From Escherichia coli O127:H6 str. E2348/69 (GTDB lineage: Bacteria > Pseudomonadota > Gammaproteobacteria > Enterobacterales > Enterobacteriaceae), in assembly GCF_000026545.1 (NCBI RefSeq), contig NC_011601.1: a stretch of DNA of 64,000 bases. One strand, written 5' to 3'. Below, piece after piece: positions 18,001-20,918 of the stretch. A program made the position numbers. The first letter of the stretch is position 1; the number at the start of each line of letters is the position of its first letter.

Positions 18001-20918
18001 TTTCATCGAAATGCCTAAATCACCGTGCATTACGCCCCAAATGTAATGGAGATACTGCTGCCACATCGGTTTATCTAAGCCGAGTTCAGCCAGCAATTGC
18101 GCGTGACGCTCTGGGGAGATCCCACGTTCGCCCGCCATGATCATCACCGGATCGCCCGGGATCATGTGGACAAAGGCAAATGTGAGAAGGGTAATACCGA
18201 TAAACGTGGGGATGACGAGTCCCAAACGTCGGAGAATAAACTGCAACATAACCCGGATTCTCTATAGTGACCCGCAGCCTGGAACTGCGTGTCTGTATTG
18301 CTCACAAATCAATTCCCGCCCTTGTCGGACAGGGAATGAAGTATTGCTGCCGGATGGCGCTGCACGCAGAGGCACAGCACCACCGGGTATGCAGATTGTT
18401 GACAAAGAGCGCTTTGTTTATGCCGGATGCGGCGCAAACGCCTTATCCAACCTACAAAATCGTGCAAACTCAATACATTGCAGAACTCTCGTAGGCCTGA
18501 TAAGCGGAGCGCATCCGGCAGTTTTGCGTTTGCCATCAACCTTGTATGGCTTTTAATTATTCGATAGAGACGTTTTCGAAGTGATGTTTGCCTAATGGAT
18601 CAACCACATAGCCTTTAACTTCTTTGCGTACCGGTTCAAACACGGTGGAGTGAGCGATGATCAGTGCCGGAGCCTGATCGTGCATCACGACCTGTGCTTG
18701 TTTGTACAGTTCAACACGTTTATTGTGGTCGTCGGTAGCACGCGCCGGTTGAATCAGATCTTCAAACGGTTTGTAGCACCATTTTGAGTAGTTGGAGCCT
18801 TGTTCAGAGGCGGCGCAGCTGAACAGGGTGGCGAAGAAGTTATCCGGATCCCCGTTATCGCCAGTCCAGCCCATCATTACCGTCTGGTGCTCGCCATCTT
18901 TCGCACGCTTGAGGTACTCACCCCATTCGTAGGTGACAATTTTGGCCTGCACGCCGACTTTCGCCCAGTCTGCCTGAATCATCTCCGCCATGCGGCGAGC
19001 GTTCGGGTTATACGGACGTTGTACCGGCATTGCCCACAGGTCGATGGAGAAGCCTTTTTCCAGGCCCGCTTCTTTCAGCAAGGCTTTCGCTTTTTCAGGA
19101 TCGTAAGTGTAGTCCTGAACGTCGTCGTTATAGCCCCACATGGTTGGCGGGATCAGGTTTTTCGCTGATACGCCCGCGCCCTGATAAACCGCTTTGATGA
19201 TGGCGTCTTTGTTCACCGCGTAGGTCAGAGCCTGGCGAACTTTCACGTCATCCAGTGGTTTTTTCTGCACGTTATACGAGAGATAACCGACGTTCAGCCC
19301 CGGCATTTCCATCAGGTTGATGGATTTATCCTGCTTCATGCGGGCGATATCTGCCGGGTTCGGGTACGGCATTACCTGGCATTCGTTCTTCTGCAATTTC
19401 GCGTAACGCACGGAAGCGTCAGGAGTAATAGAGAAGACCAGCGTATCGATCTTCGGTTTGGTGCCCCAGTAGCCATCAAACGCTTTATAGCGAATACGGG
19501 AATCTTTCTGGTACTGCTGTAACTGGAACGGGCCGGTACCGATTGGGTTGAGGTCCAGTTTTTCCGGTGTACCGGCTTTCATCATCGCGTCAGCATATTC
19601 TTTTGACAGAATAGAGGCGAAGTCCATTGCCAGGTCAGCGAGGAACGGCGCTTCCGGGCGAGTCAGCACAAACTGAACGGTGTTATCGTCCACCTTTTTC
19701 ACTTCGCTGATCAGCTCTGGCAAGCCCATGCCTTCGAAGTATTCGTAGCTGCCGCCAGAGACTTTATGGTACGGGTTTTGCGCGTTTTTCTGACGATCGA
19801 ACGAGAACACTACGTCATCGGCATTCAGTTCGCGCGTCGGTTTGAATTCTTTATTGTCGTGCCACTTCACACCTTTACGCAGATAGAAGGTATAGGTTTT
19901 ACCGTCTTCGCTGACTTCCCACTTTTCAGCGAGGCCCGGGATGACTTCAGTGGTGCCGATTTTAAATTCAACCAGACGGTTATAAAGCGGTACGGAAGAG
20001 GCGTCATAGGTGGTGCCGGAGGTAAACAGCTGCGGGTTAAACCCTTCCGGAGATCCTTCTGAGCAATAAACCAGAGTTTTAGCCTGAACACTTGCTGCGA
20101 CGGTCATAGCCACCAGGCTGAGACCAAGCTTCAGCATCCCTGACTTTTTCAAGGAAATACGCATTATTCTGCTCCAATTGTGATGTTTGTTGTTTTAACC
20201 CTTTGCAGTGGGTTGTCGCTGCCTGACCTTTTTTGTTTTTTGCCCGGTCGGGTCAACGTTATGAGGTGGGGATGCCGTACTAATTAACATCAGTGTAACA
20301 GTGCGGATCCTCCATAAAATGCCCCTCGTGATCTACAATCTGTCAACAGAATGTGAAAACGTCAATACAGCCAACCGGGATTTACACCAACGGTGAGAAT
20401 CCACAAACAAAGATTAAAAAAACTTCAAACAGCTATTTGCAGCAGAGAAATTTGTGCTACGCCAACACAACCAGAACAATCAGCTTAATATTTAGCAACA
20501 TTTGGTGATTAAGTTTTATGCATTTAATGAAAAAAATCTGAGGAAAAGGTGGATATCTGAGCGATTAATACCATGAACGCTAAAACGCACAGCGGAAAAT
20601 GCCAGCGCCAGCCATAAGTAACGCAAAAAAAGATTTAAGCAAATATAAAAAAAGACAATGGTTTCTGTCACAAATCCGTTAATGGATAGTGAGATATGGG
20701 GCGCAAATTTGGCAGGGAAATGTGTGGTGTGTAGGTCGAATAAGGTGTTCACGCCGCATCCGACAATGGGCCGGCACATTTGCCTGATACGACGCTGGCG
20801 CGTCTTGTCAGGCCTACGTCGAATCGAACCTCCCCGCCCCCGGAGGTTCTCTTCCTCATGAGTTACAGATGCAAAAAAGCCTGCTCGTTGAGCAGGCTTT
20901 TCGAATTTGGTCGGTGAT

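What the first reader, a model, noticed from the sequence alone, without database searches (positions are those of the whole stretch)
18330..18530. REP/BIME clusters in the dppB–dppA and avtA–ysaA spacers (the second at 57348..57470)
Both spacers carry paired imperfect palindromes of the GCCGGATGCGGCG / CGCCTTATCCGGCCTAC type. These are ordinary for E. coli but worth noting: REP elements can stabilise upstream mRNA, and they mark spacers that are not coding despite the ORFs the track reports there.
Basis: partly seen in the sequence, partly recalled or inferred. Interest (0 to 1): 0.15.

Follow-up and report, generated by a model that had tools for sequence, protein, structure and literature searches.

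The report
Ordinary E. coli BIME-1 repeat copies
Both spacers carry a copy of BIME-1, a well-known repeated palindromic element of E. coli (two inverted REP hairpins around an IHF-site linker); it is ordinary, non-coding, and missing from many E. coli strains.

Summary
Confirmed and ordinary. The window is E. coli E2348/69. Each spacer holds one Y-type REP and one 30-nt Z1-type REP in inverted orientation around a 35-nt linker. This is the BIME-1 (RIP/RIB) architecture. The Y units match the published consensus at 30/34 and 31/34 positions. Both linkers score above threshold against Rfam RF02751, and the element has at least 37 BLAST places per E. coli genome.

Refinements:
- The dpp copy is full length, about 150 nt with outer motifs shared with the fepA-entD and satP-mog copies. 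The avtA copy is truncated.
- Both copies are insertion/deletion polymorphisms. About 40% of 5,423 genomes lack the dpp copy and about 17% lack the avtA copy. E. albertii has the dpp copy; other genera do not.
- Published K-12 Term-seq places the stable RNA 3' ends at neighbouring non-BIME hairpins (window 18348 and 57496), not inside the BIME-1 copies.
- The ORFs across the spacers are spurious.
- The finding missed a third REP pair, a BIME-2 unit at 20731-20817.

Function at these two loci (exonuclease barrier, IHF binding, translation damping at the avtA stop codon) is inferred, not shown. Nothing here is new.

The parts
18393..18542 (.). Full-length BIME-1 in the dppA-dppB spacer (left outer motif, Y, L, Z1, right outer motif). 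The dpp mRNA (- strand) reads it Z1 to L to Y.
   Evidence: It aligns over about 147 nt at 86-88% identity with paralogs at fepA-entD and satP-mog. It is absent as a 157-bp block from O157:H7 and O26:H11.
18393..18420 (+). Left outer motif AGATTGTTGACAAAGAGCGCTTTGTTTA
   Evidence: Shared with the fepA-entD and satP-mog copies. Its last 14 nt are shared with the avtA copy.
18421..18455 (+). Y-type REP with a degenerate tail (CCAACCTAC instead of CCGGCCTAC)
   Evidence: 30/34 identity to the published Y consensus. K-12 has the intact tail. The RNA hairpin folds at -16.2 kcal/mol.
18456..18490 (+). L linker with an IHF-consensus-like site at 18468-18480 (ACTCAATACATTG, 1 mismatch to WATCAANNNNTTR)
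   Evidence: Rfam RF02751 ES036 matches 18456-18498(+) at 44.8 bits, above the gathering score of 37.6. IHF pattern.
18491..18520 (-). Z1-type REP (30 nt). Its head carries T>G (GCCGGATGCG), which creates a stem mismatch.
   Evidence: 27/29 identical to the avtA Z1. The hairpin is only -8.5 kcal/mol, against -13.2 for the avtA Z1.
18521..18542 (+). Right outer motif GTTTTGCGTTTGCCATCAACCT
   Evidence: Shared with the fepA-entD and satP-mog copies.
18387..18391 (+). GTATG, left copy of a 5-bp direct repeat bounding the 157-bp indel (right copy at 18544-18548)
   Evidence: Alignment of long and short alleles. The short allele keeps one copy.
18544..18548 (+). GTATG, right copy of the 5-bp direct repeat
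18350..18386 (-). Third imperfect palindrome (CCGGATGGCGCTG ... CAGCACCACCGG), an old REP remnant. It is present in both alleles and is the strongest local hairpin in the spacer. The published K-12 dppA 3' end maps 2 nt past its base (window 18348).
   Evidence: Folds at -25.4 kcal/mol. Orthologous to genus-type REPs in Citrobacter werkmanii and Pseudescherichia. Term-seq 3' end at K-12 3705889(-) in all three conditions.
18305..18335 (-). Fourth hairpin (ATTCCC...GGGAAT) followed by a U-rich tail, in the dppB leader. Not part of the repeat.
   Evidence: Terminator-like hit at 18333 to 18315. The stem changes sequence but keeps its pairing across genera.
57348..57466 (.). Truncated BIME-1 in the avtA-ysaA spacer. 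The avtA mRNA (+ strand) reads it Z1 to L to Y.
   Evidence: Gap-free alignment with the dpp copy over 112 nt. About 113 bp are absent in strains S5 and DG343-1.
57352..57381 (+). Z1-type REP. Its stem starts 5 nt after the avtA stop codon (57345-57347).
   Evidence: Folds at -13.2 kcal/mol.
57382..57416 (-). L linker with an IHF-consensus-like site at 57392-57404(-) (ATTCAATATATTG)
   Evidence: Rfam RF02751 ES036 matches 57374-57416(-) at 38.9 bits, above the gathering score of 37.6. IHF pattern.
57417..57451 (-). Y-type REP
   Evidence: 31/34 identity to the published consensus. Folds at -19.9 kcal/mol.
57452..57466 (-). Remnant of the left outer motif (TAAACAAAGCGCACT on the + strand)
57468..57491 (.). 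Perfect 10-bp hairpin (TTCCGGCGTT GAGA AACGCCGGAA) between the BIME-1 and the ysaA stop codon. It is present in both alleles. The published K-12 avtA 3' end maps 5 nt past it (window 57496).
   Evidence: inverted repeat I5. Folds at -17.4 kcal/mol. Term-seq 3' end at K-12 3741106(+) in all three conditions.

Best explanation
Both features are copies of BIME-1, also called RIP or RIB. BIME-1 is a high-copy, non-autonomous repeated element of Escherichia. It consists of one Y REP and one Z1 REP in inverted, tail-to-tail orientation around a conserved 35-nt L linker that carries an IHF-type site.

Shown here:
- Both copies lie in transcribed but untranslated DNA. One sits between dppA and dppB inside the dpp operon. 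The other sits between the convergent genes avtA and ysaA.
- The dpp copy is a derived insertion in the Escherichia lineage.
- Both copies are dispensable, since many E. coli genomes lack them.

Inferred:
- When transcribed, each copy folds either as two REP hairpins or as one hairpin of about 100 nt. Each lies inside the 3' UTR of the upstream gene, 5' of a separate hairpin where the stable RNA 3' end forms after Rho-dependent termination further downstream.
- At most they act as modulators: a second barrier to 3'-to-5' exonucleases, and an IHF-binding site on the DNA.
- At avtA, where the REP stem begins 5 nt after the stop codon, the copy may also damp translation termination and AvtA yield.
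- Spread is presumed to be catalysed in trans by the REP-associated tyrosine transposase (TnpA-REP/RAYT).
For: Identity. The REP tail and head patterns are far above chance. The Y units match the published consensus at 30/34 and 31/34. The definition of BIME-1 as y + z1 + long L linker with an IHF site comes from Ton-Hoang 2012. The 37-nt unit is Z2 according to Nunvar 2010, so the 30-nt unit here is Z1 by elimination. Both linkers score above the Rfam RF02751 gathering threshold, in a consistent Y-to-Z1 orientation. The two copies align without gaps over 112 nt. The outer motifs are shared with the fepA-entD and satP-mog copies.

Dispensability and mobility. The long dpp allele is in 3,249 of 5,423 genomes; the rest carry a 150-bp spacer. 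The long avtA allele is in 4,491 of 5,425 genomes. E. albertii has the dpp copy, while Citrobacter, Enterobacter, Klebsiella and Pseudescherichia do not.

RNA level. Fold z-scores are -4.1, -7.5 and -6.1. K-12 Term-seq 3' ends are at 3705889(-) and 3741106(+), which correspond to window 18348 and 57496, in all three conditions. Rho termination regions lie downstream at 3705667(-) and 3741383(+). The model of Rho termination followed by trimming back to a hairpin is from Dar & Sorek 2018. The rule that a REP within 15 nt of a stop codon lowers translation is quoted.
Against: No function was measured at these loci. IHF binding was not tested, and each linker's IHF site has one mismatch to a consensus that occurs about once per kb by chance. 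No curated 3' end lies inside either BIME-1, but multimapping reads were discarded in that study, so ends inside the repeat could have been missed. In E2348/69 the dpp copy carries substitutions that weaken both REP stems (-8.5 and -16.2 kcal/mol), which looks more like decay than maintained function. The 5-bp direct repeat flanking the dpp insertion is not expected from an IS200/IS605-type mechanism.
Confidence: 0.88

Rival explanations
1. The BIME-1 copies are the primary stabilisers and attenuators. As with malE-malF or hisJ-hisQ, the REP hairpins themselves would define the 3' end of dppA (and avtA) mRNA and set the high DppA to low DppBCDF ratio.
For: The layout is the classic one: a binding-protein gene, then REPs, then permease genes. 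The predicted structure is strong. The literature describes REP stabilisation and BIME-associated attenuation. Nearly every Enterobacterales dppA-dppB spacer holds a strong hairpin: 110 of 114 fold at -20 kcal/mol or better, against 42 of 114 shuffles.
Against: The mapped K-12 3' ends lie at hairpin 18350-18386 and at hairpin 57468-57491. Both are outside the BIME-1 and are present in the alleles that lack it. About 40% and about 17% of E. coli genomes lack the respective copy. The strongest local hairpin in the dpp spacer is the non-BIME one, at -25.4 kcal/mol.
Confidence: 0.2
2. The L-linker regions are genes for a small RNA (Rfam ES036/CssrF) that acts in trans.
For: Both linkers score above the RF02751 gathering threshold, and Rfam classes the family as 'Gene; sRNA'.
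Against: The model is simply the BIME-1 linker consensus plus 8 nt of the Z1 tail. Neither spacer has a sigma-70-like promoter. The ES036-sense strand at dpp is antisense to the operon. The K-12 Term-seq lists show no 3' end in either linker on either strand. The sequence exists in dozens of copies per genome.
Confidence: 0.04
3. The ORFs across the spacers encode real small proteins, for example 18267-18494(+), which is annotated as a hypothetical protein in some RefSeq genomes.
For: PGAP annotates a 75-aa CDS here in strains E41 and LF82.
Against: The C-terminal 35 aa are encoded by the mobile BIME-1. The ORF is 47 aa in O157:H7 and 18 aa in O26:H11. None of five spacer ORFs has a Pfam match. 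The peptide motifs are typical read-through of REP sequence. The ORF lies antisense to the dpp operon, and no promoter-like site was found.
Confidence: 0.02
4. The palindromes are chance matches or ordinary intrinsic terminators, not members of the REP family.
For: Intergenic hairpins are common, and one hairpin in each spacer is indeed not a consensus REP.
Against: 7 tail-pattern matches against 0.48 expected, with none of 100 shuffles reaching 7. 88-91% identity to the published consensus. No T-run follows any of the REP stems. The sequence is present in dozens of copies in every E. coli genome.
Confidence: 0.01

Closest known systems
BIME-1 / RIP / RIB elements of E. coli (Gilson 1991; Oppenheim 1993; Boccard & Prentki 1993; summarised in Ton-Hoang 2012, PMC3333891)
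   Same: One Y and one Z1 REP in inverted orientation, a conserved long L linker with an IHF-type site, a single copy per locus, and a position at the 3' side of genes.
   Different: Nothing of substance. The E2348/69 dpp copy carries lineage-specific substitutions (Y tail GG>AA, Z1 head T>G) that weaken both stems. The avtA copy lacks most of the outer motifs.
Intercistronic REP stabilisers of ABC-transporter operons (malE-malF, hisJ-hisQ; Higgins 1982, Newbury 1987; from established knowledge and references)
   Same: A highly expressed binding-protein gene is followed by REP hairpins and then by the permease genes.
   Different: In K-12 Term-seq the stable dppA 3' end lies at a neighbouring degenerate palindrome, not at the consensus REPs. 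The BIME-1 is absent from about 40% of strains.
REPIN/RAYT system (Bertels & Rainey 2011; Nunvar 2010, PMC2817692; Ton-Hoang 2012)
   Same: An inverted REP doublet behaves as the unit that is gained or lost, and shows presence/absence polymorphism between strains.
   Different: The dpp insertion is flanked by a 5-bp direct repeat, and the satP-mog copy by an imperfect duplication of about 20 nt. IS200/IS605-type transposition makes no target duplication. No RAYT gene lies in this window.
Rfam RF02751 ES036 (CssrF) and RF02564 naRNA4 (CssrE)
   Same: RF02751 matches both L linkers above threshold. RF02564 matches the separate BIME-2 unit at 20734-20814.
   Different: These Rfam 'sRNA' families are models of BIME segments. 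There is no evidence here for independent genes.
BIME-2 (Y + Z2 with short linkers; binds gyrase)
   Same: Shares the Y REP.
   Different: The two loci of the finding have the 30-nt Z1 and the long L linker, not the 37-nt Z2 with a short S linker. Only the third cluster (20731-20817) is of the BIME-2 type.

Membership tests
REP / palindromic unit | Imperfect palindrome of 30-40 nt that can form a stem-loop with an internal mismatch | tested here: met
   All four units fold as hairpins with an internal mismatch or bulge, at -8.5 to -19.9 kcal/mol. Arms reported.
REP / palindromic unit | Conserved GTAG/CTAC tetranucleotide at the foot of the palindrome | tested here: met
   All four units end in CCTAC. 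The feature is defined in Ton-Hoang 2012.
REP / palindromic unit | Match to the published consensus | tested here: met
   Y units 30/34 and 31/34 against GCCGGATGCGGCGTGAACGCCTTATCCGGCCTAC. Tail pattern 7 matches against 0.48 expected.
REP / palindromic unit | Extragenic location and high copy number in the genome | tested here: met
   Both lie between annotated CDSs.
REP / palindromic unit | Bound and cleaved by TnpA-REP (RAYT) | not testable with these tools
   This is a biochemical property (Ton-Hoang 2012).
BIME-1 (RIP/RIB) | One Y and one Z1 REP in inverted orientation, present as a single unit and not tandemly amplified | tested here: met
   Y-L-Z1 occurs once per spacer. The Z1 assignment is by elimination: the unit is 30 nt, not Y, and not the 37-nt Z2 of Nunvar 2010.
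BIME-1 (RIP/RIB) | Conserved long L linker | tested here: met
   35-nt linkers score 44.8 and 38.9 bits against Rfam RF02751 (gathering score 37.6).
BIME-1 (RIP/RIB) | IHF consensus in L, and IHF binding | tested here: inconclusive
   One-mismatch matches to WATCAANNNNTTR lie at the same relative position in both linkers, but the background is 1.05 such matches per kb. Binding cannot be tested here. The IHF ChIP paper I consulted had no usable supplement.
BIME-1 (RIP/RIB) | Conserved outer flanking motifs | tested here: met
   The dpp copy shares 28-nt and 22-nt flanks with the fepA-entD and satP-mog copies. The avtA copy keeps only about 15 nt and about 5 nt.
BIME-2 | Y alternating with the 37-nt Z2 across short S/s/l/r linkers, often in tandem | tested here: not met
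   Neither locus has a Z2 unit or a short linker. This feature is met only by the separate cluster at 20731-20817 (Rfam naRNA4, 68.7 bits against a gathering score of 59.5).
REP mRNA stabiliser (malE-malF type) | The stable 3' end of the upstream mRNA lies at the REP stem, and removing the REP shortens the half-life | tested here: not met
   The curated K-12 Term-seq 3' ends lie at neighbouring hairpins (window 18348 and 57496), with none inside either BIME-1. Caveat: multimapping reads were filtered. The half-life test cannot be done here.
Intrinsic terminator | GC-rich hairpin followed directly by a U-run | tested here: not met
   No REP stem is followed by a T-run. The only terminator-like hit on the transcribed strand of either spacer is hairpin 18333 to 18315.
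REP translation damper (Liang, Rudd & Deutscher 2015, as quoted in PMC12306157) | The REP stem starts fewer than 16 nt after the stop codon | tested here: met
   At avtA there are 5 nt between the TAA (57345-57347) and the first paired base at 57353. At dppA there are 37 nt, so the rule does not apply. The effect on translation itself was not tested.

The most novel reading that the evidence does not exclude
The presence or absence of these two BIME-1 copies could be a natural cis-regulatory polymorphism. Strains with the avtA copy (REP stem 5 nt after the stop codon) would make less AvtA than the roughly 17% without it. The dpp copy would shift the DppA:DppBCDF ratio relative to the roughly 40% of strains that lack it. 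A related point concerns mechanism: the direct repeats flanking the insertions (GTATG at dpp; an imperfect duplication of about 20 nt at satP-mog) might mean that full-length BIME-1 inserts by a route that duplicates its target, unlike the IS200/IS605-type model.
Probability: 0.15. Interest if true: 0.35.

Novelty: already known. Interest (0 to 1): 0.08.

Why it matters
It matters little beyond annotation hygiene. These spacers should be labelled as BIME-1 repeats, not as CDSs, yet some RefSeq genomes still carry a 'hypothetical protein' here. The Rfam 'sRNA' hits ES036 and naRNA4 at such sites are matches to repeat elements, not evidence of genes. The only mildly useful by-product is that both copies are common insertion/deletion polymorphisms. 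That gives ready-made natural allele pairs for testing what a BIME-1 in a 3' UTR actually does.

Tried and rejected
- I first labelled the 30-nt unit Z2 from memory. Nunvar 2010 shows that Z2 is the 37-nt unit, so I corrected the label to Z1.
- RefSeq K-12 carries no REP features in this copy, so annotation could not be used as a check.
- The literature search for 'ES036' returned only grant numbers.
- Several sources were not held: Liang 2015/2016, Boccard & Prentki 1993, Gilson 1991 and Bachellier 1997. The supplements of Prieto 2012 (IHF ChIP) and Dar & Sorek 2018 (Term-seq) were not held either. There is therefore no locus-specific IHF evidence.
- The DppABCDF structure paper says nothing about the spacer.
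- I looked for an empty fepA-entD allele to test for target duplications. That copy is essentially fixed (5,345 of 5,425 genomes), so no test was possible.
- Coding, sRNA-gene, intrinsic-terminator and chance readings were considered and rejected; see the rival explanations.
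Full report
**Context.** The window is 100% identical to the E. coli E2348/69 chromosome. dppB is 17230-18249(-) and dppA is 18557-20164(-), with a 307-bp spacer at 18250-18556. avtA ends at 57347(+) and ysaA is 57499-57978(-), with a 151-bp spacer at 57348-57498.

**Observation.** Reading the sequence and the inverted-repeat report gives the following layout.
- dpp spacer: TGCCGGATGCGGCGCAAACGCCTTATCCAACCTAC at 18421-18455(+), a 35-nt linker, and the reverse-oriented GTAGGCCTGATAAGCGGAGCGCATCCGGCA at 18491-18520.
- avtA spacer: TGCCTGATGCGCTACGCTTATCAGGCCTAC at 57352-57381(+), a 35-nt linker, and GTAGGCCGGATAAGGCGTTTTAGCCGCATCCGGCA at 57417-57451.

This is well above chance. 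The REP tail pattern CTTATCMGGCCTAC (up to 2 mismatches) occurs 7 times in the window against 0.48 expected, and none of 100 shuffles reached 7. Four of those hits are these units. The four exact hits to the head pattern TGCCKGATGCG are also these units. The two Y units match the published consensus GCCGGATGCGGCGTGAACGCCTTATCCGGCCTAC (quoted in PMC12306157) at 30/34 and 31/34 positions.

**What class of element.** Ton-Hoang et al. 2012 define BIME-1 as one y and one z1 REP separated by a long, well-conserved linker L that frequently carries an IHF site, occurring as a single copy. They define BIME-2 as y plus z2 with short linkers, often in tandem. Nunvar et al. 2010 identify the 37-nt unit GTAGGcatGATAAGaCGcgcCAgCGtCGCATCaGGCA as Z2. 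The 30-nt unit here is therefore Z1, by elimination, and both loci have the Y-L-Z1 layout of BIME-1 (also called RIP or RIB).

Three independent results support this.
- Rfam family RF02751 (ES036/CssrF) has a consensus that is the linker plus 8 nt of the Z1 tail. It matches 18456-18498(+) at 44.8 bits and 57374-57416(-) at 38.9 bits, against a gathering score of 37.6. These are its only two hits in the window, and they share the same Y-to-Z1 orientation.
- Placed in the same orientation, the two copies align without gaps over 112 nt.

Each linker has a one-mismatch match to the IHF consensus WATCAANNNNTTR at the same relative position. Such matches occur about once per kb in the window, so this is weak evidence on its own.

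**Full extent.** In genomes that lack the dpp copy, the best BLAST match to window 18388-18549 is a paralog covering about 147 nt at 86-88% identity. These paralogs lie between fepA and entD and between satP and mog. The alignment shows shared outer motifs: AGATTGTTGACAAAGTGCGCTTTGTTTA on the Y side and GTTTTGCGTTTGTCATCAGTCT on the Z1 side. The dpp copy is therefore a full-length element of about 150 nt (18393-18542). The avtA copy (57348-57466) keeps only about 15 nt and about 5 nt of those flanks. Orientation relative to the upstream gene is not fixed. The dppA and avtA mRNAs read Z1 first, whereas the fepA mRNA reads Y first.

**Other hairpins in the spacers.** The dpp spacer has two further hairpins that are not part of the repeat.
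- 18350-18386 (CCGGATGGCGCTG...CAGCACCACCGG) folds at -25.4 kcal/mol and is the strongest local hairpin in the spacer.
- 18305-18335 folds at -14.5 kcal/mol and is the only terminator-like site on the transcribed strand.

The avtA-ysaA spacer has a perfect 10-bp hairpin at 57468-57491.

Folded as RNA, each whole BIME-1 is predicted to form one long hairpin in which Z1 pairs with the inverted Y, at -47.9 and -46.8 kcal/mol. Fold z-scores against shuffles are -4.1 for the dpp spacer, -7.5 for the avtA strand and -6.1 for the ysaA strand. In E2348/69 the dpp copy carries substitutions absent from K-12 and E. albertii: the Y tail is GG>AA and the Z1 head is T>G. These weaken the individual stems to -16.2 and -8.5 kcal/mol, against -19.9 and -13.2 for the avtA copy.

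**Population and phylogeny.** Both copies are insertion/deletion polymorphisms.
- At dpp, 3,249 of 5,423 E. coli genomes cover at least 80% of a 427-nt query. The rest match in two pieces spanning 270 bp. O157:H7 and O26:H11 have a 150-bp spacer lacking exactly 157 bp (window 18387-18543), and the indel is bounded by the direct repeat GTATG at 18387-18391 and 18544-18548.
- At avtA, 4,491 of 5,425 genomes have the long allele. Strains S5 and DG343-1 have a 38-bp spacer in which 7 nt (TACGCTA) stand in place of window 57348-57467.
- Hairpins 18350-18386, 18305-18335 and 57468-57491 are present in both alleles.

A degenerate scan for the dppB start codon region returned 120 Enterobacterales loci. 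E. albertii has the 307-bp spacer with the orthologous BIME-1. Citrobacter, Pseudescherichia, Enterobacter, Klebsiella and others have spacers of about 105-190 bp without it. The element is therefore a derived insertion in Escherichia. The short E. coli allele is either a retained empty site or a precise loss.

In Citrobacter werkmanii and Pseudescherichia, the position of hairpin 18350-18386 is occupied by their own genus-type REP (GTAGGCCGG[A/G]TAAGCG.AGCGCCA[T/C]CCGGC). The E. coli hairpin thus looks like an old REP remnant. Nearly all dppA-dppB spacers are structured. 110 of 114 have a 50-nt window folding at -20 kcal/mol or better, against 42 of 114 dinucleotide shuffles, and the real sequence is more stable than its shuffle in 109 of 114 cases.

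By contrast, the fepA-entD copy is essentially fixed. K-12 lacks the satP-mog copy, and the filled allele there carries an imperfect duplication of about 20 nt of the adjacent terminator hairpin.

**How it most likely works.** In Adams et al. 2021 (PMC7815308, supplementary file 1), the only curated 3' end in the dppA-dppB spacer is 3705889(-), found in all three growth conditions. This corresponds to window 18348, 2 nt past the base of hairpin 18350-18386. The only curated end after avtA is 3741106(+), which corresponds to window 57496, 5 nt past hairpin 57468-57491. No curated end falls inside either BIME-1. Supplementary file 2 lists Rho termination regions further downstream, at 3705667(-) inside dppB and at 3741383(+) antisense to ysaA. 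This fits the model in which Rho terminates downstream and exonucleases then trim the RNA back to a stable hairpin (Dar & Sorek 2018). One caveat applies: multimapping reads were discarded in that study, so ends inside the repeat could have been missed.

On this evidence the BIME-1 copies sit inside the 3' UTRs, 5' of the structures that define the stable ends. They are also dispensable in many strains. I infer that they are passenger copies of a mobile repeat with at most modulatory roles:
- a back-up barrier to exonucleases;
- an IHF site on the DNA (not tested);
- at avtA only, a possible damping of translation. The Z1 stem starts 5 nt after the stop codon, and REPs closer than 16 nt to a stop codon are reported to lower translation (Liang et al. 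2015, as quoted). At dppA the distance is 37 nt, so the rule does not apply.

**Coding potential.** Five ORFs overlap the spacers, and none matches Pfam. ORF 18267-18494(+) is annotated as a hypothetical protein in some RefSeq genomes. However, its last 35 codons lie in the mobile element, and it shrinks to 47 aa in O157:H7 and 18 aa in O26:H11. Its sequence is typical REP read-through. Neither spacer has a sigma-70-like promoter.

**Comparison and novelty.** Every tested defining feature of REP and of BIME-1 is met. The IHF feature is inconclusive and the RAYT feature cannot be tested here. The BIME-2 and intrinsic-terminator definitions are not met. The literature already describes these elements, their polymorphism between strains, their IHF sites and their RNA effects. 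The finding is already known, and its interest is low.

Two things remain open. One is a real regulatory difference between strains with and without each copy. The other is the meaning of the short direct repeats at the insertion borders, which an IS200/IS605-type mechanism would not produce.

Noticed in passing
window 20731-20817: A third REP pair that the finding does not list: a degenerate Y (20731-20764, -), a short linker, and a 36-nt Z2 (20782-20817, +), arranged head to head. This is a BIME-2 unit. It scores 68.7 bits against Rfam naRNA4 RF02564 (gathering score 59.5). It lies between the dppA upstream region and a tRNA gene at 20911-20984(-).
   Followed up: partly
window about 18285-18303 (- strand), and loci L011-L129: The box TTTGTGAGCAATACAGA(C), 42-43 nt upstream of the dppB ATG, is nearly invariant from Escherichia to Klebsiella and Enterobacter. 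It is found in 39 of 114 spacers with up to 2 substitutions. It is preceded by a hairpin whose sequence changes while its pairing is kept: 28 of 36 distinct sequences close a hairpin within 6 nt of the box. This looks like a conserved attenuator or leader element for dppB. I do not know its function.
   Followed up: partly
L131 540-810 versus L133 (K-12 9700-10150): The satP-mog spacer is 34 bp in K-12 but about 204 bp in strain SF-468. The difference is a full-length BIME-1 inserted next to the terminator hairpin, with an imperfect duplication of about 20 nt of that hairpin beside it. Together with the GTATG repeat at dpp, this hints at target duplication on BIME-1 insertion.
   Followed up: partly
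window 52640-52735: Two palindromes follow the gene that ends near 52635: CGCATCAGGT...ACCTGATACG, and the perfect 10-bp GCCTTATCCG / CGGATAAGGC. Both have REP-like half-sites but do not match the consensus.
   Followed up: no
window about 20259 (K-12 3707800, - strand): Adams et al. 2021 list a very strong Term-seq 3' end in the dppA 5' UTR, 95 nt upstream of the ORF (score 804,330). This suggests an abundant short 5'-UTR transcript or premature termination.
   Followed up: no
window 9895-10813 and 37771-38632: Other Rfam hits at gathering threshold: STnc490 at 9895-10018(-), two rdlD antitoxin RNAs at 10265-10330 and 10748-10813, the cspA thermoregulator at 37771-38198, and a sok-like antitoxin RNA at 38481-38632(-).
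   Followed up: no
E. coli genome hit H80 (strain EC96) and H113 (strain 100117): One genome appears to lack the dppA-dppB region altogether, since only a paralogous BIME matched. One genome has an unusually divergent avtA-ysaA spacer (92.9% identity over 351 nt).
   Followed up: no
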